A stretch of 20,000 bases of DNA from an uncultured virus (IMG/VR IMGVR_UViG_3300030117_003229) (Duplodnaviria; Heunggongvirae; Uroviricota; Caudoviricetes): the IMG/VR virus record IMGVR_UViG_3300030117_003229, positions 44,903 to 64,902 of that record; one strand, written 5' to 3'. The notes under the pieces were generated by a model that made no database searches, had not been told where the DNA came from, and saw only the letters and a list, made by a program, of their open reading frames with translations. Position 1 is the stretch's first letter, and the number at the start of each line of letters is the position of its first letter. Both the position numbers and the translations under genes were made by a program. This document shows, piece after piece, positions 1 through 13,191 of the stretch.

Positions 1-243
1 AGGTGTTGTTTTAATTAAGATTTTATCACCACTATGAACAAGATCACATAATCTATATTCATTTGTTTCATCTATCTTTGCAAATCTTTCTTTTAAAGTG
101 TCCCTGCTTCTTCTTTCTAATTCCATTTCAGCAATTTCATGATGAACAGTTTTAAAAATTTCATCTTCACTTGCACCTGATAAAACAGTTTCCCATGTCA
201 TAGGAAAACTTTGTAAAAGCTCATACTTTTTTGTTTCAACCAT
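1..243 (-). CDS. Hypothetical protein, truncated at the window edge (MVETKKYELLQSFPMTWETVLSGASEDEIF...)
   Basis: Manual translation: ATG at 243, preceded by an AAGGAG RBS and a promoter; the frame is open to position 1. Not in the ORF track. Confidence 0.75.
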   Translation of the reverse strand, partial: MVETKKYELLQSFPMTWETVLSGASEDEIFKTVHHEIAEMELERRSRDTLKERFAKIDETNEYRLCDLVHSGDKILIKTTP

Positions 244-263
244 GTCTAACTCCTTTGTTATTA

Positions 264-338
264 TTTTAATATTCACAAAAGAAGGTACAATAAAATATTA
301 TAATGTCAAAGGGTTTTTTAAGGGTTTATATAGGGTTT
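264..338 (-). promoter_or_regulatory. Sigma70-type promoter P1 with three upstream 11-bp-phased AAACCCT boxes
   Basis: TTGACA (309-304), 16 nt spacer, TACCTT (287-282). The +1 region GTGAATATTAAAA (276-264) is identical to that of P2. AGGGTTT occurs on + at 310, 321 and 332. Confidence 0.7.
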
Positions 339-1188
339 AATATTTCTTATATCTTTCTGATAGTATCTTTGGTACTGCATTTACCCATTTGATACTGTGA
401 TGTATTCTTTTATGATTTGCATTTAAAACTTTTATTTTAATTGAACTGGGTGAGCATAAAACTGAATAAAAACTTTTTACATAAGTTCCATAATTAAGAT
501 ATACGGTTGTCATCCCTTCTTTTGTTTTCTGAGTTTGCTTTTGAACCAATGATGCTAAGTGAGTAGTAAAAAACAAATGTCCTATACTTCCTAAATAAAC
601 ATAAGTTGTTACATCTTCATTTATTTTACCTAAAAAATTAAAAGGTTTATCTGTAGAACATACAAAGCTGTTCATTGCTTTTCTTTTTAGACCTCCTTTT
701 ATTGCAAAAACATTTTCTGCACCTCCAATAAAATCCCCACCTTGTGCTAATGCTAAAGATGTTGTAGGTGTATTTGATACAAAGTTTACCATACTATTAA
801 ATATGTGATCTAAATTTTTAACTGATTCAACAGCTAACTTATTACCTTTGATTGTTCTATACTCAAAAGCTCTATAGTCATCATCTAACTGTATAAAATA
901 TTTATATCCTAGTTTTTTAGCAATGTAAAAACAGTAATTTCTTGCATAGACTACTGTATTTGTATTTTTAAAATTATCAAAAGTATCAAATGTTTTTGAA
1001 ATAGTATTTTTATTAAAAACTAAAACATTATTAAAGTTTTTTTTATATTTATTTAATGTTTTATCTTCATCATCAACTATTAAAAATATTTTTCCAGTAT
1101 ATCCTGAATTTTTTAATGTTTTTATTGTTAAAACATAATCAGGTCTGCCACTAGTAAGAATAAATACACAATAATTATTCTTCACCAT
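337..1188 (-). CDS. GT-A fold glycosyltransferase of the TAGT/GREB1-like phage DNA-base-modifying type
   Basis: N-terminal FILTSGRP, FIQLDDDY (DxD), GGDFIGG, RKAMNSF, INEDV, QTQ..GMT and RIHH.I.W..AVPKI motifs, as recalled for this family. Confidence 0.7.
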   Translation of the reverse strand: MVKNNYCVFILTSGRPDYVLTIKTLKNSGYTGKIFLIVDDEDKTLNKYKKNFNNVLVFNKNTISKTFDTFDNFKNTNTVVYARNYCFYIAKKLGYKYFIQLDDDYRAFEYRTIKGNKLAVESVKNLDHIFNSMVNFVSNTPTTSLALAQGGDFIGGAENVFAIKGGLKRKAMNSFVCSTDKPFNFLGKINEDVTTYVYLGSIGHLFFTTHLASLVQKQTQKTKEGMTTVYLNYGTYVKSFYSVLCSPSSIKIKVLNANHKRIHHSIKWVNAVPKILSERYKKY

Positions 1189-4414: not shown

Positions 4415-4587
4415 ATATTTAGATCATCATAAATGTTATTAATATTTTCATCTGTTATGTCTATTTTCTTTTCTATCCTGTGCATCCTCCAAAGCATACT
4501 TAGATTTAATAATAAGATCATCAACATAGTAAACTCCCAGTATGGAAAATACTCTACACTAAATAAAGCCTCCCAGTAATACCTCAT
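4411..4587 (-). CDS. 58-aa single-TM protein MRYYWEALFSVEYFPYWEFTMLMILLLNLSMLWRMHRIEKK...
   Basis: Manual translation; ATGA overlaps at both ends. Confidence 0.7.
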   Translation of the reverse strand: MRYYWEALFSVEYFPYWEFTMLMILLLNLSMLWRMHRIEKKIDITDENINNIYDDLNI

Positions 4588-4817
4588 ATCAAACTCATTT
4601 GGTTTTTATTACCTTCAGGACTTATAGCATAATACTGGCTATATCTTTTTCCATTCAAAGCAACTATTGTTTTTGATCCTATTTGCATACCTTCATTTTT
4701 AAGATCATTGATTCTTGAAGCAAGTCTCATGCAACCAAACATATTAAAAGCATCCAAGCTGGTAAGTTTATTACCATGATTTAAATACTCTTTTATCTGT
4801 TTATTCTGACTCTTCAT
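4584..4817 (-). CDS. Winged helix-turn-helix DNA-binding protein (HTH_39-like)
   Basis: QNKQIKEYL..G..LTSLDA...FGCMRLASRINDLK..G..I...Y pattern. Confidence 0.75.
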   Translation of the reverse strand: MKSQNKQIKEYLNHGNKLTSLDAFNMFGCMRLASRINDLKNEGMQIGSKTIVALNGKRYSQYYAISPEGNKNQMSLI

Positions 4818-6244: not shown

Positions 6245-6450
6245 TACTTACCTCCTTCTATTTCCCAGCTTAACCAGTTTTTAAACATTCTTTCAACTTG
6301 AATTGAAGACTTACCTATTACATTTACATTTTTCATTTCTGTTTTATTAACATTTGGATTATGAACCATTGTAAACTTCATATCATTACTTAATGCTCTC
6401 CACCAATGTAAAGATTTTGTTCTTACATCATTTACTTCTATTATTTTCAT
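6244..6450 (-). CDS. Hypothetical early protein
   Basis: ORF with AAGGAGGT RBS. Confidence 0.7.
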   Translation of the reverse strand: MKIIEVNDVRTKSLHWWRALSNDMKFTMVHNPNVNKTEMKNVNVIGKSSIQVERMFKNWLSWEIEGGK

Positions 6451-6466
6451 TACTTACCTCCTTCTG

Positions 6467-6766
6467 CTATAAGTACATCAATTCTTCATCTGAAGAATTA
6501 TAGGTTTCTAACTGATACTTAGTGTACCTAAAACTGTACCTACCATCTTTAAATGCTTGTTTAAAAAGCTCAAAAAATAAATCACATTCACTTTGATGAG
6601 TAAACCTATATCGAGATGTATATGGTAACTCATTATACCCTTTAGATTTATAAACTTTTGTATATAAAAAGGGATGATATGCCATATCTATTACGCATTC
6701 CTCAATTAATGATTCTAGTTTCTTATTGTCTTTACTATTTGGAACAACTATATCTACAAATAACAT
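6467..6766 (-). CDS. Hypothetical early protein
   Basis: ORF with GGAGGT RBS; TAATG coupling. Confidence 0.7.
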   Translation of the reverse strand: MLFVDIVVPNSKDNKKLESLIEECVIDMAYHPFLYTKVYKSKGYNELPYTSRYRFTHQSECDLFFELFKQAFKDGRYSFRYTKYQLETYNSSDEELMYL

Positions 6767-6978
6767 TACTTACCTCCACTTCCTTTCCAAACTGCATTTT
6801 GTATGTAGCTTGTTTGCTGTTCATAAATTTTAGCCATAATTTTACTAACTTGCCTTAGTTCTTTTTTATTATCAAGGGTAATTCCAAGAACTTTAGAACC
6901 ATCTGTTTTTTCAAGCTTTACACTTGTCTCTACAAGCAAGTTATAAATATATAACGCTTCTTTTTTAGTTAATTCCAT
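6766..6978 (-). CDS. Hypothetical protein, first gene downstream of promoter P2
   Basis: TTGGAGGT RBS directly after the promoter. Confidence 0.7.
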   Translation of the reverse strand: MELTKKEALYIYNLLVETSVKLEKTDGSKVLGITLDNKKELRQVSKIMAKIYEQQTSYIQNAVWKGSGGK

Positions 6979-7076
6979 TTAAACCTCCAAGTTTGTTTTT
7001 AATATTCACTTTACAATATTACAACCAATAAAATTACCATGCAAGGACTTTCTTTAGGGTTAGGTAAGGGTATGTG
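6979..7076 (-). promoter_or_regulatory. Sigma70-type promoter P2 of the early/replication operon, with ACCCT boxes
   Basis: TTGCAT (7044-7039), 17 nt spacer, TAATAT (7021-7016). +1 region GTGAATATTAAAA (7009-6997). AGGGT on + at 7056 and 7067. Confidence 0.7.
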
Positions 7077-7085
7077 GAAAGGGGA

Positions 7086-7151
7086 GGCTGGGAAGGTTTA
7101 TAGTTGTGAATATAGGATGAAGTTGGAGCGAACACCCTCTTCTCCCCAGCC
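7086..7151 (-). ncRNA. Candidate structured antisense RNA element A (intergenic)
   Basis: Outer stem GGCTGGGGAG/CTTCCCAGCC and inner stem AGGGTG/CATCCT (G-U pairs favour the minus strand); 13-nt loop TTCGCTCCAACTT; bulge ATATTCACAACTATAAAC. GC-rich island in AT-rich DNA. Confidence 0.55.
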
Positions 7152-7189
7152 ATAGGGACAAATTTACTATTTTTATTTATATTTTAAAA

Positions 7190-8254
7190 TTAAAATTCTT
7201 CACTTATACTTAAATTAACATTAAACATATTAAATGCAACTTGTTTCATATCTAGTTTGTTTTGATTAAACCTAGCAAACAAGTAAGATCGCTCTGCATT
7301 GTTTCCTGTATCTGTTGAATCACTAGAAAAAATAAATGGTATCAAATTCCCTTTTGTTCTATTCCAAACATCTGAAACAACTGTATCTTGATCAGCATCC
7401 TCTGTATCATATTCTACTGGCATTATGTCTGAACTTGCTAAAAAATTAAAATTTAGATCATAAATTATTCTACCTCCATATATTCCGGGAGCATAAGTAG
7501 CGGTTGAAAATGGTGATTTAGAGCGCACATTTTGAAATCTTCTGCCTAAATGAGTAGCATTACCAAATTTTTGACCGCCAACAGATTCTTGAATTTTTAC
7601 ACCATCATAGATAATTGTTCTTTTAAGAGAAATCTCTGGATTATGTGGCATTTGATAAGACTCACCTATTAAAATACATCCGATTTTAAGGTCATATATA
7701 CCATCAAAAGATCCATCAGTAGCCGTATCACTTGAGTCTCCATCTTTTCCTTCAAATTGCAAACCCCAATATCTATTGGTACTAGAACTGAATGTAAAAA
7801 TAGTTGATCCATCTGTTGCAGGAATTACTACATTGCCACTTACAATATCAGCATTTACTACTTCTGAAACACTTGAAATATCTGTACCACCACTCATATC
7901 TGCATTATTTACATGACTTTCAGTATTACTACTTTTTACTCGCACTTTTGCTTCAGAACTATCCATGTTATGATTTAAAATTGCAATATAATCACAATTA
8001 AAAGCATTACTATTTAAATCAATATTTACAAGAACATGATCAGTTCTTGCAGTTGCGTTTTCAGATGTTTCAAACTGACATTGATTCATAGGTCTCATAT
8101 CAAACAATTCTGGCTCACTTCCAAGATTAAAAGTATTGATAAGGTCTGATCCGCTTATTACATCAAAATTGCCATCTTGTGCAATACCTGATGCCATTAA
8201 AAAATTAATATGATCTGTAAAAAATTTTACTGTTTTAATATCCATGTTAGCCAT
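7190..8254 (-). CDS. Virion tail-tip protein, Dit-like with an N-terminal beta-sandwich domain
   Basis: C-terminal IGCILIG..., R.IYDLNFNFL, IPFIF, FNVNLSISEEF pattern resembles siphophage distal tail proteins; located in the tail module. Confidence 0.5.
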   Translation of the reverse strand: MANMDIKTVKFFTDHINFLMASGIAQDGNFDVISGSDLINTFNLGSEPELFDMRPMNQCQFETSENATARTDHVLVNIDLNSNAFNCDYIAILNHNMDSSEAKVRVKSSNTESHVNNADMSGGTDISSVSEVVNADIVSGNVVIPATDGSTIFTFSSSTNRYWGLQFEGKDGDSSDTATDGSFDGIYDLKIGCILIGESYQMPHNPEISLKRTIIYDGVKIQESVGGQKFGNATHLGRRFQNVRSKSPFSTATYAPGIYGGRIIYDLNFNFLASSDIMPVEYDTEDADQDTVVSDVWNRTKGNLIPFIFSSDSTDTGNNAERSYLFARFNQNKLDMKQVAFNMFNVNLSISEEF

Positions 8255-10580: not shown

Positions 10581-12809
10581 CTAGATAGTAGCACGAAGTA
10601 CGGCTCTATTTTCACGAACTGCTGAATTAATTGCTGGTATAATGCTTTCAACTACTGTTTCATCAACCAATGGAGCAGATATATTTACAGTAATATTATT
10701 TCCCATACCACCAGCAAGGTTTTCTTGCTGTGCTTGATTCAAAATAACTTCACCCGGTGTAAGCATTGCTGGTACTGTATCACTTTGACTAGTATTTAAT
10801 CCAGGTACAATGCCACCTTCTGCAAACCCCAAAGCCCCTGAACCCGCCTTAATTTGAGATATTAAAGAATTTGTCAAAGCTCCTACTGCGGCTATAACTA
10901 ATGGCGCACCTATTACAGCCGCCGGCCCCATTGATGCTAATATTCCAGAAATCATTTTACCACCATCTGCAAGAACACCAGCTATATTTTTACCTGAACT
11001 AATTAAAAATTCTTTCATAGCAGAAGATTTAGCAGATGCTTCTTTAAGAGCATTGGTTGCGTTTTGAATTGCTACCTCTTGGAATTTATTTTTTATAAAT
11101 GCCTTTGTATGTTCACCAATAAATCTAATTGTAGAATTTTTTACAGCTTCTTCAATTAATATTCTTCTTTCTGCTCCGTGCATATTTGCATCAGTTAATG
11201 TTTGAATAAACTGATCATGTGCTGAAAGAGTAGCATTATAAAATATATTTTTTTCCTCTAATTCTTTTTTAATGTTTGCTATTTCATCTTCAGTAAGTTG
11301 CCTAGAAATTTGTTTTTTCTTTTCAGCAACATCTTCTTCAAGTTTAATTTCTTGCCCTTTTATGTTTCTTTTAGCATCTAATTGAGCTTGTAATTCATCT
11401 AATTCACCAAGCAATACTTTTGATCTGGAATTAGCAAATAATTGATCAAAAGCCTCTTGCTCTTTTTGAGTTAATTCAGCACCTTCAACTATATCTTGGT
11501 ACATATCTGAAAATAAAAGCCCTATAGCTTCTGTGCTTAAAGCAAATTGACTTTCTAATAATTTTTGCCTAGCAGATATATTCTCACTTAAATCTTTAAA
11601 AGGATTTATTGCATCAAGAAACTTATCACCTAATAATTTTACTCTAGATTCAATATTACTTAAAGCAATAAAAAAAGATTTTTGCATTACCTCAAGAATT
11701 TGAGGAAGTTGCGTTTTTATTGTTTTAGCTAAATTATCAAAACCTATTTCCCCTAATTTTGCAAATTCTTTATTTACACTTTCTATACTAGGTTGAATGA
11801 TTGTGATTAAAGACTTGCCAATTTCAATCAGTACAGACTGAATACTGTTTTTTAACATAGACATTTGCTGATTGAAGCCACTAGACATTTTATCAAATGC
11901 TTTTTGAGTAGCCCCTGTTGATTTAGTAGCAAACTCACCTACATTAGTAGTTAATGTTTCAAAGTTTTGAGCCATAGTCTGAATACCTAATATAGCTTCA
12001 ACTCTAGGAATAATCTTTTTTAATGTATCTGGATCAACACCTTGAAATTGTTTTATAGTAGAAACTAAATCTAATGTGCCATCGTCAAATCTTTTTATTT
12101 CTATTCCAGCTTCTTCCATTGCTTTTTTAGAGCTATCTGCTGGTGATTGTAAAGAAACTAATGTTGCCCTTAATGAAGTAGTGGCTTGTGCTGTACTAAT
12201 ACCTGATGCTGTAAGGGTAGCCATTGCCGCCCCTACCCCATCTAAACCCAATCCTGCTGATCTAGCGAATGGTAAAACTTGACCTAAACTAGCACTTAAT
12301 TCAGTCATAGTAGTTTTACCAAGTCTTACAGTAGTAAATAATTGATCTGCTACTTTATTAGTATCACTTGCATCAAGACCTAAAGCATTTAATGATGTTG
12401 TAAGAAGATCAGCGGCTTCAGCCACACTTGTAACACCACCAACTGCTAATTCACTAGAAACCCTTAATACTTCTGCACTATCTGACACACTACTAAATCC
12501 AGCAGAAACAATATCATATTTAGCTTTACTTAATGAATCTAATGCTACCCCAGAACTCATTGCTACAGCCCTAAGTTCCCTAGACATTTTATCTAAATCT
12601 CTATTTGTAGTTTTTCCTAATAATGTAGATACTTCTAAAAGACTTTTTTGAAAGTCCCCTGCTAACTTTGTAGATAATAAACCAAGTCCAGCAGTCGCTA
12701 TCCCAGCTTTTTTTCCTATACTTGTTACTGCTGATCCTACACTTTTTAATGCTCCTGTAGTTTTCTTAGCACCTTTTATACCAACTTTTAATATTAAACT
12801 TTTAGCCAT
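10581..12809 (-). CDS. Tail tape measure protein (TP901-like)
   Basis: Ala/Gly/Ser-rich helical repeats (AD.L...VRLGKTT..EL..SLGQV), C-terminal FAEGGIVPG...SDTVPAMLTPGEV, position after the chaperones. Confidence 0.9.
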   Translation of the reverse strand: MAKSLILKVGIKGAKKTTGALKSVGSAVTSIGKKAGIATAGLGLLSTKLAGDFQKSLLEVSTLLGKTTNRDLDKMSRELRAVAMSSGVALDSLSKAKYDIVSAGFSSVSDSAEVLRVSSELAVGGVTSVAEAADLLTTSLNALGLDASDTNKVADQLFTTVRLGKTTMTELSASLGQVLPFARSAGLGLDGVGAAMATLTASGISTAQATTSLRATLVSLQSPADSSKKAMEEAGIEIKRFDDGTLDLVSTIKQFQGVDPDTLKKIIPRVEAILGIQTMAQNFETLTTNVGEFATKSTGATQKAFDKMSSGFNQQMSMLKNSIQSVLIEIGKSLITIIQPSIESVNKEFAKLGEIGFDNLAKTIKTQLPQILEVMQKSFFIALSNIESRVKLLGDKFLDAINPFKDLSENISARQKLLESQFALSTEAIGLLFSDMYQDIVEGAELTQKEQEAFDQLFANSRSKVLLGELDELQAQLDAKRNIKGQEIKLEEDVAEKKKQISRQLTEDEIANIKKELEEKNIFYNATLSAHDQFIQTLTDANMHGAERRILIEEAVKNSTIRFIGEHTKAFIKNKFQEVAIQNATNALKEASAKSSAMKEFLISSGKNIAGVLADGGKMISGILASMGPAAVIGAPLVIAAVGALTNSLISQIKAGSGALGFAEGGIVPGLNTSQSDTVPAMLTPGEVILNQAQQENLAGGMGNNITVNISAPLVDETVVESIIPAINSAVRENRAVLRATI

Positions 12810-13191
12810 CTGATTTATGTTTGCTTATATTGTTTATTTCTTGTTCAATTACACCAAAACAATCAAGTTTAAAAGTAGAAATAGAATCAAAGTCTTTTCC
12901 TAAAGGAACATTGTAAGTTGTGGCAAGTTTATATTCTTCTAATATATCCCAAACCCACTTTTTTATATGCTCTTTTGGGTTGCAAAAAAAAGGCATTTCA
13001 TAATATAAAGTCTGACCTATCCCAAACTTTTCTACACCTTTTTGATTTAACACTTTTCCTATTTCAGCTTCAACCATTTTATCATTCTCAAAAACAATCT
13101 TTTTATTGGTTACAGGCGACCGAGCTGTGTAAGGATAATCTAAATGATTATCTGGAAAACCTAGTTGAGTAAACCAGATTGCACACCTCAA
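12802..13191 (-). CDS. Tail assembly chaperone T segment, probably expressed as a -1 frameshift G-T fusion of about 225 aa
   Basis: TTG start with no clear SD; in the -1 frame relative to the upstream chaperone at the slippery GGGAAAC. Confidence 0.75.
   Translation of the reverse strand: MRCAIWFTQLGFPDNHLDYPYTARSPVTNKKIVFENDKMVEAEIGKVLNQKGVEKFGIGQTLYYEMPFFCNPKEHIKKWVWDILEEYKLATTYNVPLGKDFDSISTFKLDCFGVIEQEINNISKHKSDG

What the first reader, a model, noticed from the sequence alone, without database searches (positions are those of the whole stretch)
6976..7151. Intergenic structured RNA whose loops are antisense to the leader and RBS of the adjacent early transcript
Seen: on the minus strand, 7151-7086 folds into a 10-bp outer stem, a 6-bp inner stem, a 13-nt apical loop (UUCGCUCCAACUU) and a large bulge. 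Three of its segments are complementary to the ~31-nt P2 leader. CUCCAA pairs with UUGGAG in the SD (6990-6985). AUAUUCAC pairs with GUGAAUAU at the predicted +1 (7009-7002), which is also the +1 of P1 (276-269). UAAACCU pairs with AGGUUUA (6986-6980). The first two segments have the same order and similar spacing (9 vs 11 nt) as their targets. Known: bipartite loop-mediated antisense immunity RNAs exist (P1 c4, P4 CI). Inference: this is a phage sRNA that silences both early transcripts, either for immunity or as an early-to-late shutoff. It could arise from late-operon read-through or from a weak promoter (TAAATT about 8 nt upstream).
Basis: partly seen in the sequence, partly recalled or inferred. 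Interest (0 to 1): 0.85.

Follow-up and report, generated by a model that had tools for sequence, protein, structure and literature searches.

The report
Phage antisense RNA hairpin before early genes
A conserved RNA hairpin between the tail genes and the next operon of some uncultured marine phages exposes two short stretches that match the start and the ribosome-binding site of the neighbouring messages, so it probably switches their translation off.

Summary
The hairpin is real. Minus strand 7151-7086 folds as described. It recurs in 39 of 39 pattern-derived marine loci (23 distinct element/leader versions), and 7 of its 17 stem pairs show compensatory changes. It is the core of a ~200-nt cassette: conserved -10-like hexamer, hairpin, the most C-rich/G-poor tract of the record, P2 promoter, short leader. 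Different genes lie on either side.

In all, 96% of cells pair and 4 of 18 pairs change on both sides. The bulge also matches the 5' end of a second promoter's leader in 8 of 8 genomes. The third segment is not conserved.

Within this one genome the pairing energy is unremarkable, rank 5 of 100 gene starts. No transcript evidence could be obtained. There is no Rfam match.

Best reading: a c4-like, non-homologous antisense RNA element that blocks translation of the leaders. Whether it acts in trans or only in cis is open.

The parts
7184..7189 (-). T-rich -35-like hexamer (TTTTAA), 17 nt upstream of the -10-like hexamer; candidate weak promoter Ps
   Evidence: 21 of 23 distinct upstream flanks have TTT here, against 3% of all TAnnnT hexamers on the gene strand of the record. 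The flanks fall into only about three sequence contexts.
   Evidence: A TAnnnT hexamer lies 8-12 nt before the stem in 23 of 23 distinct flanks. Positions 1, 2 and 6 are invariant and position 4 varies. The wider flank motif is not repeated elsewhere in the record above control level.
7086..7151 (-). Structured RNA element: outer stem 7151-7142/7095-7086, inner stem 7138-7133/7119-7114, apical loop 7132-7120, 3' bulge 7113-7096
   Evidence: Fold. Covariance model R1 scores 71.8 bits, E 1e-13. On 20 sequences 97.4% of cells pair, 7 of 17 pairs change on both sides, and slid controls give at most 1.
7123..7128 (-). Loop segment CTCCAA, complementary to the SD region of the P2 leader
   Evidence: The CTCCAA/TTGGAG type (5 versions) and the CTCCAT/ATGGAG type (16 versions) co-vary at pair 29-180.
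7106..7113 (-). Bulge segment ATATTCAC, complementary to the first 8 nt of the P2 and P1 leaders
   Evidence: Pair 47-161 is UA:14/CG:7 and pair 39-169 is AU:2/GC:2. One variant (L147) has a 13-nt perfect match after coordinated changes on both sides.
7046..7085 (-). C-rich, G-poor tract with ACCCT repeats; candidate Rho loading site
   Evidence: The 40-nt window starting at 7096 has C minus G = +21, the highest of the 64.9-kb record (mean -2.4, sd 4.05, next best 13). In 23 versions the first 40 nt after the stem hold 8-16 C and 0-4 G.
7016..7044 (-). P2 promoter: -35 TTGCAT 7044-7039, 17-nt spacer, -10 TAATAT 7021-7016
   Evidence: My reading of the aligned sequences of the 21 versions finds a TTGnnn/TTTRnn -35-like hexamer about 17 nt before a TAnnnT hexamer, itself 5-6 nt before the leader motif. 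This was not counted by a script, and the simple consensus scan did not list the site.
6979..7009 (-). P2 leader: predicted +1 G7009, GTGAATAT 7009-7002, TTGGAG 6990-6985. The start codon follows at 6978-6976.
   Evidence: All 21 versions with complete downstream sequence have RTGAATA...GGRG...ATG. Mosaic junctions lie at the start codon.
241..309 (-). P1 promoter and leader: -35 TTGACA 309-304, -10 TACCTT 287-282, GTGAATATTAAAA from 276, SD GGAG 253-250, ATG 243-241. Three AACCCT repeats lie upstream at 337-311.
   Evidence: TGAATATTAAAA occurs only at P1 and P2 in the record. Duplex energy with the element is -16.6, z -2.84, with 3 of 300 shuffles as good.

Best explanation
The hairpin is the core of a conserved regulatory cassette of about 200 nt. 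The cassette lies between the last tail gene and the first gene of the P2 operon in a group of uncultured marine phages.

The hairpin works as RNA read in the same direction as the genes. Two co-varying stems hold an apical loop (CUCCAA here) and a 3' bulge (AUAUUCAC here) single-stranded. These two segments pair antiparallel with the Shine-Dalgarno region and with the first 8-13 nt of the short leader made from promoter P2 about 100 nt downstream. The bulge also pairs with the identical 5' end of the leader of a second promoter (P1) 6.7 kb further on.

Inferred: pairing covers the ribosome-binding site and the 5' end of the message, so the first cistron is not translated.

Inferred: the RNA comes from transcription arriving from the tail genes, from a weak conserved promoter-like site (TTTTAA, 17 nt, TAAATT) just upstream, or from both. 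It has no intrinsic terminator. The unusually C-rich, G-poor tract after it would load Rho, and the stable hairpin would mark the trimmed 3' end.

The design is that of the P1/P7 c4 antisense RNA: loop-exposed, bipartite, encoded upstream of its target on the same strand. It is not homologous to c4.

Shown: the structure, its conservation, the complementarity and its co-variation. Inferred: the transcript, action in trans, repression, and the biological role (shut-off of these messages once tail-gene transcription has run through).
For: Structure:
- Searches give the fold and the consensus fold.
- 20 sequences, 97.4% of cells paired, 7 of 17 pairs with changes on both sides, slid controls at most 1, and G-U pairs that fit only the gene strand.

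Family:
- Model R1 found 14 hits among 88 sources and 39 hits in 39 pattern-derived loci.
- Together with the window these make 40 regions, 27 distinct regions and 23 distinct element/leader versions. All are marine records.

The cassette is kept while both neighbours change (my reading of the sequences):
- About three upstream contexts and about 12 different first genes.
- The same first genes occur behind both subfamilies.
- Mosaic junctions in other samples lie at about 6972 and 7174-7182.

Pairing:
- In all 21 complete versions the best duplex is bipartite, bulge to leader position 1 and loop to SD, with z from -2.5 to -5.9.
- Own-subfamily pairings average -18.0 and -16.9 kcal/mol; cross-subfamily pairings average -12.2 and -12.9.
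- 96.2% of long-range cells pair, and 4 of 18 pairs change on both sides, against 0-2 in slid controls.
- L147 has 13 perfect pairs after coordinated changes in bulge and leader.

Second target:
- In 8 of 8 genomes where a P1-type promoter was found, the variable R of RTGAATA equals that of the P2 leader and complements the bulge.
- Four relatives and the window's P1 score z -2.6 to -3.8 against shuffles.
- The loop form TTACTCC goes with GGAGTAA in G003, and TTAACTCC with GGAGTTAA in G002, G004, G005 and G007. G001's loop differs and matches one base less.

C-rich tract. Conserved -10-like hexamer. Not a described family.
Against: - No transcript evidence. The one RNA run that held related sequence has contigs only on genes 6300-6460 and 6672-6777, which says nothing about the element.
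- Inside the window's own genome the pairing is not outstanding: rank 7 of 100 and 5 of 100. The loop matches the SD regions of two other genes (starts at 2590 and 5921) better than that of P2.
- The window is the weakest subfamily-A member, with a U-U mismatch where relatives have G-C or A-U.
- Independent co-variation events are few, about five. The sequences are close relatives, and the shuffle control does not correct for relatedness.
- The scan patterns fixed CTCCA, TCCT and AGGG, so constancy there is by selection.
- There is no intrinsic terminator after the hairpin, although the record has canonical ones elsewhere.
- The candidate promoter has a poor -35.
- In subfamily A the loop does not match the P1 SD.
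- The third complementarity is not conserved.
Confidence: 0.5

Rival explanations
1. Cis-only insulator. The element never acts as a free RNA. On transcripts that run from the tail genes (or from the weak upstream promoter) into the P2 operon, loop and bulge fold back onto the leader 100 nt downstream and hide its SD. The untranslated RNA is then terminated by Rho, loaded on the C-rich tract. Messages started at P2 lack the element and are translated.
For: - Same strand, and always within 69-94 nt of the leader.
- No intrinsic terminator between the tail gene and P2, although the record uses canonical terminators elsewhere.
- In five versions the upstream ORF ends 3-8 nt before the conserved flank, so the element lies in a 3' UTR.
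- The C-rich, G-poor tract is unique in the record.
- Element and leader are inherited as one cassette.
Against: - It does not explain why the leader of the P1-type promoter, 5.7-7 kb away, keeps a 5' end complementary to the bulge in 8 of 8 genomes. That would have to be a promoter feature that merely happens to be shared.
- Hiding an SD in cis needs only an anti-SD. The two loop-exposed segments held by co-varying stems are the usual design of trans-acting antisense RNAs.
Confidence: 0.25
2. Plain end-of-operon signal. The hairpin plus C-rich tract is a Rho-dependent terminator with a 3'-end-protecting stem for the tail-gene transcript. The complementarity to the leaders is incidental.
For: - Position right after the last tail gene.
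- A stable stem.
- An extreme C-over-G tract.
- Pairing energy in the single genome is not exceptional.
Against: - A protective stem needs no conserved loop or bulge sequence, yet these are the most conserved unpaired parts.
- They change together with the leader (L147; GATATTCAC with GTGAATATC against AATATTCAC with GTGAATATT).
Confidence: 0.1
3. DNA-level operators. RTGAATAW at the start sites of P1 and P2, and its inverted copy inside the element, are binding sites for one phage regulator. A winged-helix protein is encoded at 4584-4817. Subfamilies differ in operator and regulator specificity.
For: - The same motif sits at both start sites and once inverted.
- The motif type is the same at all three sites in 8 of 8 genomes.
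- An HTH_39 protein is encoded in the P2 operon.
Against: - It does not explain the second complementarity (loop with SD flank) or its co-variation.
- It does not explain why both motifs lie in the unpaired parts of a hairpin whose stems co-vary and use G-U pairs.
- The distance between the inverted copy and the start site varies (69, 76, 80-83, 86-91 nt after the stem) with no helical phasing.
- L113 keeps the loop-SD contact through a U-G pair, which is meaningful only in RNA.
Confidence: 0.1
4. Invertible promoter. The imperfect inverted repeat (element interior against leader) flanks P2 and is the target of a site-specific invertase.
For: The two complementary blocks flank the P2 promoter in inverted orientation.
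Against: - All 27 distinct regions have P2 facing the downstream genes.
- No strand-changing joint appears among the contigs of 4 runs, though this is weak because contigs drop minor forms.
- The family scans made here named no recombinase, but they were partial: 20 window proteins, 31 and 9, and ORFs under about 90-110 aa outside the window were not scanned.
- An inverted P2 would fire antisense into the tail genes.
- It does not explain the co-varying stems.
Confidence: 0.02

Closest known systems
c4 antisense RNA of phages P1 and P7 (Rfam C4; Citron and Schuster 1990, as cited in PMC12197685 and PMC8198154, passages read)
   Same: - A small structured RNA whose complementary sequences are thought to lie in loops.
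- It binds around the ribosome-binding site of a message and blocks translation.
- It is encoded upstream of its target in the same operon and direction (c4-icd-ant).
- Sequence variants define specificity groups (P1/P7 heteroimmunity). Compare subfamilies A and B and the L147 type here.
   Different: - No similarity to any Rfam model, even at E up to 10.
- A promoter (P2) lies between the element and its nearest target.
- One segment pairs with the very 5' end of the message.
- It sits at the tail-gene/next-operon junction of uncultured marine phages in which the partial family scans named no lysogeny function.
- RNase P processing of c4 is recalled, not read here, and could not be tested.
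CI RNA of satellite phage P4 (recalled from memory; no paper read here)
   Same: A processed, stable stem-loop RNA from the leader of an operon. It pairs with two complementary sites on transcripts of the same region and shuts expression off.
   Different: As I recall it, P4 CI causes premature transcription termination rather than covering an SD, and it serves lysogenic immunity. No sequence or model match here.
sar RNA of phage P22 (reference list of PMC12197685 seen; mechanism recalled)
   Same: A phage antisense RNA that covers the ribosome-binding site of an early regulator gene.
   Different: sar is transcribed from the opposite strand of its target and is fully complementary to it. The element here is on the same strand, does not overlap its target and is only partly complementary.
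T4 RegB endoribonuclease (recalled from memory)
   Same: Same proposed outcome: early messages are switched off through their GGAG Shine-Dalgarno sequences.
   Different: RegB is a protein nuclease. Here the agent would be an RNA that also reads the 5' end of the message.

Membership tests
C4 antisense RNA (Rfam C4 family) | Match to the family covariance model | tested here: not met
   No match at gathering score in the window. In 6900-7260 at E up to 10 the only match is a chance snoRNA hit on the other strand.
C4 antisense RNA (Rfam C4 family) | Two exposed segments complementary to the ribosome-binding region of the target message | tested here: met
   Loop to SD region and bulge to 5' end, both in unpaired parts of the fold, in 21 of 21 complete versions. 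The second segment targets the 5' end rather than a second site next to the RBS.
C4 antisense RNA (Rfam C4 family) | Encoded upstream of the target, on the same strand, in one transcription direction | tested here: met
   The difference is that promoter P2 lies between the element and its target.
C4 antisense RNA (Rfam C4 family) | Released from a longer precursor by RNase P (recalled) | not testable with these tools
   The sequences after the outer stem do not show a constant NCCA-type tail (my reading's listing).
C4 antisense RNA (Rfam C4 family) | Part of an immunity region controlling an antirepressor in a temperate phage | tested here: inconclusive
   The downstream genes have no family assignment. 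The scans named no lysogeny function, but they were partial and searched for no specific gene.
Cis-encoded (opposite-strand) phage antisense RNAs such as P22 sar or lambda oop | Transcribed from the strand opposite the target and overlapping it | tested here: not met
   Element and targets are on the same strand, 76 nt and 6.7 kb apart. G-U pairs in the stems fit only the gene strand.
Intrinsic (Rho-independent) terminator | G+C-rich stem followed at once by a run of U | tested here: not met
   Not listed by the terminator scan. The stem is followed by a C-run. Some variants have a U-run only 7-9 nt later. Canonical terminators exist elsewhere in the record.
Rho-dependent terminator (rut site) | An extended C-rich, G-poor, unstructured tract on the transcript | tested here: met
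   Highest C-minus-G window of the 64.9-kb record, conserved in composition in 23 versions. Rho dependence itself is not testable here, and the host is unknown.
tRNA-like element or attP core | A tRNA or tmRNA gene call, or identity to a host genome | tested here: not met
   No tRNA or tmRNA in the window. The family pattern found no match in 185,579 species genomes.

The most novel reading that the evidence does not exclude
The element is an 'end-of-cycle' RNA. It is made only when transcription has run through the whole morphogenesis operon. It then feeds back in trans on the first cistrons of both leader-sharing promoters. Its co-evolving loop/bulge-leader types (A, B, the L147 type) act as RNA specificity groups among co-occurring marine phages. 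A cell late in infection would then silence the incoming early messages of a superinfecting phage of the same type but not of another type. This would be an RNA-only heteroimmunity in phages in which the partial scans here named no lysogeny function.
Probability: 0.15. Interest if true: 0.8.

Novelty: new variant of a known kind. Interest (0 to 1): 0.62.

Why it matters
Few phage antisense regulators are known, and I know of none from uncultured marine phages (my three literature searches did not target this).

Here a purely sequence-based case rests on evidence that can be tested directly:
- stems that co-vary;
- exposed segments that co-evolve with two leaders;
- at least three natural specificity types, which amount to ready-made compensatory mutants.

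If the reading is correct, it shows an RNA-only way of shutting off a phage's own messages. It would also add a new structured RNA family to the marine virome. The compact cassette (weak promoter, hairpin, C-rich tract, promoter, leader) could be moved into reporter systems.

Tried and rejected
- Rfam at gathering score and at E up to 10: nothing relevant.
- tRNA/tmRNA scan: none.
- blastn of the region against 50,697 phage records: no match.
- Exact 27-mer in viral contigs: none.
- The family pattern in genome contigs: no match, so no prophage copy or host clue.
- First loose pattern: 101 or more stretches, mostly chance. Only 14 of 88 sources, duplicates and the window included, held the element.
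- Pattern with a free outer stem: 2 new loci, neither matching the model. No third, more distant subfamily was found.
- A relative with a tail protein only 45% identical (L007) has no element after that gene.
- Expression: one search for runs and one laying. The only RNA run has contigs on 6300-6460 and 6672-6777 and none on the element. Contigs cannot show ends or strand, so this is uninformative either way.
- The conserved 5' flank as a repeated phage-specific promoter: not repeated on the gene strand above control level.
- A second copy of the element in the record: none.
- The third complementarity (7100-7094 with 6986-6980): not conserved, rejected as chance.
- Loop match to the SD of the 258-aa gene (start 2590; 9 nt): not kept at the homologous gene of G003. 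Treated as chance or lineage-specific.
- P1-type promoters in metagenome records could not be examined because those records are not held.
- Family scans of the genes after P1 and P2 gave no function.
- Earlier findings of the scan: none for this genome or sequence.

Full report
**What is there**

The window is the last 20 kb of a 64.9-kb virus record. All long reading frames are on the minus strand. The finding lies in the 211-nt gap between the stop of a 354-aa protein (7192-7190) and the start of a 70-aa gene (6978-6976). That 354-aa gene follows a tape-measure gene and a 759-aa gene.

Energy is -21.4 kcal/mol, z -2.56. The hairpin is unchanged when the whole gap is folded. There is no tRNA, no Rfam family at gathering score, nothing relevant at E up to 10, and no blastn match among 50,697 phage records.

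**Relatives**

The tail protein led to five loci with about 70% identical proteins. Four of these (three distinct; L003 and L004 are identical here) carry a similar hairpin right after the gene. The fifth (L006) ends inside the gene.

A covariance model built from four sequences found the element in 14 of 88 sources. It also found it in 39 of 39 loci from a family pattern scanned over viral and metagenome contigs. With the window these make 40 regions, 27 distinct regions and 23 distinct element/leader versions. Two of the 23 are cut by contig ends. All come from marine records.

The scan patterns fixed CTCCA, TCCT, AGGG and the make-up of the 5' outer strand, so constancy there proves nothing. 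The bulge, the loop flanks, the 3' strands and everything downstream were free. A pattern with a free outer stem brought no further member, and genome contigs held none.

**Structure**

On 20 sequences 97.4% of cells pair. Seven of 17 pairs show changes on both sides; the structure slid by 1-3 columns gives at most one. Several pairs are G-U, so the fold belongs to RNA (or a single strand) of the gene strand. I take the structured element as established.

**The cassette**

By my reading of the printed sequences, the order is the same in every version:
- a conserved flank with a TAnnnT hexamer 8-12 nt before the stem. It is present in 23 of 23 distinct flanks, and TTT lies 17 nt further up in 21 of 23, against 3% of all such hexamers in the record;
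- the hairpin;
- a C-rich, almost G-free tract with ACCCT repeats;
- an A-rich stretch;
- a sigma-70-like promoter, here TTGCAT-17-TAATAT at 7044-7016;
- 5-6 nt later, a leader that starts RTGAATA and ends in GGAG and the start codon.

The 40-nt window beginning at 7096 has the highest C-over-G excess of the whole record: +21, against a mean of -2.4, sd 4.05 and a next best of 13.

Again by my reading, the genes on either side change: about three upstream contexts and about 12 different first genes. The same first genes appear behind both subfamilies. Contigs from other samples diverge at about 6972 and 7174-7182. The cassette is therefore a unit that moves between mosaics.

**The complementarity**

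In all 21 complete versions the best duplex between the hairpin interior and its own leader is bipartite. The bulge pairs from leader position 1, and the loop pairs with the SD region. Scores run from z -2.5 to -5.9 against dinucleotide shuffles; the window scores -15.6 kcal/mol, z -3.1, with 2 of 300 shuffles as good.

There are two subfamilies:
- A (window and four other versions): loop CTCCAA with TTGGAG, and bulge xATATTCAC with GTGAATATy.
- B (16 versions): loop CTCCAT with ATGGAG, and bulge TTATTCAY with RTGAATAA.

On one contiguous alignment, 96.2% of the 343 long-range cells pair. Four of 18 pairs change on both sides:
- 29-180: UA 16, AU 5;
- 47-161: UA 14, CG 7;
- 39-169: AU 2, GC 2;
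- 22-187: AU 12, UA 1.

Slid controls give 0-2 such pairs.

Two further observations:
- Within A, GATATTCAC goes with GTGAATATC and AATATTCAC with GTGAATATT. The window itself has a U-U mismatch at that edge.
- One B variant (L147) differs from its kin by three changes in the bulge and four in the leader. Together these make 13 perfect pairs.

Own-subfamily pairings average -18.0 and -16.9 kcal/mol, and cross-subfamily pairings -12.2 and -12.9.

**Second target**

In the window, TGAATATTAAAA occurs only at P2 and at P1 (276 onward), behind TTGACA-16-TACCTT.

A P1-type promoter was found in seven further records, 5.7-7 kb downstream of the element in those where both positions were listed. In 8 of 8 genomes the variable first base of its leader equals that of the P2 leader and complements the bulge: G with C in the window, G003 and G006, and A with T in the other five.

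The element scores z -2.6 to -3.8 against these leaders. In B the loop also fits their SD flank: TTAACTCC with GGAGTTAA in G002, G004, G005 and G007, and the one-base-shorter TTACTCC with GGAGTAA in G003. In A the loop fits the P1 SD poorly.

**What speaks against**

- Within the window's own genome the pairing is unremarkable. The P2 leader ranks 7th of 100 gene starts with the whole interior, and 5th of 100 with loop plus bulge only.
- The loop fits the SD regions of the genes starting at 2590 and 5921 better than that of P2. The 2590 match is not kept in G003.
- The co-variation rests on about five independent events among close relatives. The shuffle control does not correct for relatedness.
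- No transcript evidence could be had. The only RNA run holds contigs on two genes of the P2 operon and none on the element, and contigs cannot show ends.
- The hairpin is not followed by a U-run, though canonical terminators occur elsewhere in the record.

**How it most likely works**

The stems exist to display two segments that are kept complementary to the leaders. That is the design of loop-exposed antisense RNAs. Pairing would cover the SD and the 5' end and stop translation of the first cistron (inferred).

The RNA can come from transcription leaving the tail genes. In five versions the upstream frame ends only 3-8 nt before the conserved flank. It can also come from the weak conserved promoter-like site. 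The C-rich tract fits a Rho loading site, and the hairpin would then be the trimmed, stable 3' end (inferred).

Whether the element acts as a free RNA or only within read-through transcripts cannot be settled here. The matching 5' end of the distant P1-type leader favours trans action. The missing terminator and the tight linkage to P2 favour cis.

A DNA-level reading takes the three copies of the motif as operators; a winged-helix protein is encoded at 4584-4817. It fails on three counts:
- it does not explain the loop-SD co-variation;
- it does not explain the G-U-containing stems;
- the spacing varies without helical phasing.

An invertible promoter is not supported. All 27 distinct regions have one orientation, and no strand-changing joint was seen.

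**Comparison with what is known**

The closest system is c4 of P1 and P7. It is an antisense RNA encoded upstream of icd and ant in the same operon. It binds around the ribosome-binding site with sequences thought to lie in loops, and it underlies P1/P7 heteroimmunity (passages of PMC12197685 and PMC8198154 read).

The element works like c4 but is not a member. No model matches, a promoter lies between it and its target, one arm reads the 5' end of the message, and the setting differs. P4 CI RNA, P22 sar and T4 RegB are looser parallels; their mechanisms are recalled, not read here.

Three literature searches were made. None was aimed at marine phages, and their listings showed no such element, so I cannot claim that it is not in print.

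**Verdict**

Comparative evidence supports an antisense relation to two leaders, but expression, mode of action (trans or cis) and effect are untested. It is a new variant of a known kind, of moderate to high interest.

Noticed in passing
whole record G000 (window = 44903-64902 of 64902): The record carries two tape-measure genes, two Phage_capsid_4 genes plus a third capsid-like gene, and two Laminin_G_3 fibre-like proteins. The relatives with the same cassette are complete at 31-32 kb, one with terminal repeats. The record may therefore be two related genomes joined in assembly, or a chimera. Only one copy of the element and of each leader type is present.
   Followed up: partly
window 311-337 and 7051-7070 (minus strand); L154, L156, L157, L160, L180: ACCCT/AGGGT motifs crowd both promoters. 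Three AACCCT repeats lie just before the -35 of P1, and TAACCCT lies before P2. Several relatives have short AAGGGT...ACCCTT hairpins before the P1-type promoter, and the outer stem of the subfamily-B element itself contains AAGGGT/ACCCTT. This could be a protein-binding or upstream promoter element. It is unexplained.
   Followed up: no
record positions 44583-44662 and 43889-44336 (just beyond the window's low end): Two canonical intrinsic terminators (G+C stem followed by a U-run) follow the first two genes after P1, ahead of the terminase, portal-sized and capsid genes. P1 may therefore drive a small regulator gene, with entry into the packaging genes requiring read-through.
   Followed up: no
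window 2590 and 5921 (gene starts, minus strand): The apical loop is complementary to 9 nt (AAGTTGGAG) at the SD of the 258-aa gene and to 7 nt at the SD of the 107-aa gene. Both matches are better than the one to the P2 leader. The match is absent at the homologous gene of G003.
   Followed up: partly
window 6972-6978 and 7174-7182: Contigs from other marine samples keep the cassette but switch to unrelated sequence exactly at the start codon and about 25 nt upstream of the hairpin. Among the family, about 12 different first genes follow the same leader. The cassette ends look like recombination joints.
   Followed up: partly
window 337-1188 (minus strand): A 283-aa protein matches PHROG 842, annotated beta-glucosyl-HMC-alpha-glucosyltransferase (E 1e-68). 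This hints at sugar-modified DNA. A homologue precedes the P1-type promoter in G004 but is absent from G003.
   Followed up: partly
record positions 10912-13046: This is the only stretch with genes on the opposite strand (four frames of 91-193 aa, one of the GP88 family). It is flanked by long non-coding, repeat-rich sequence.
   Followed up: no
window 6300-6460 and 6672-6777: One marine metatranscriptome run holds contigs 95% or more alike over two genes of the P2 operon. This could be transcription of a related phage or carried-over DNA.
   Followed up: no
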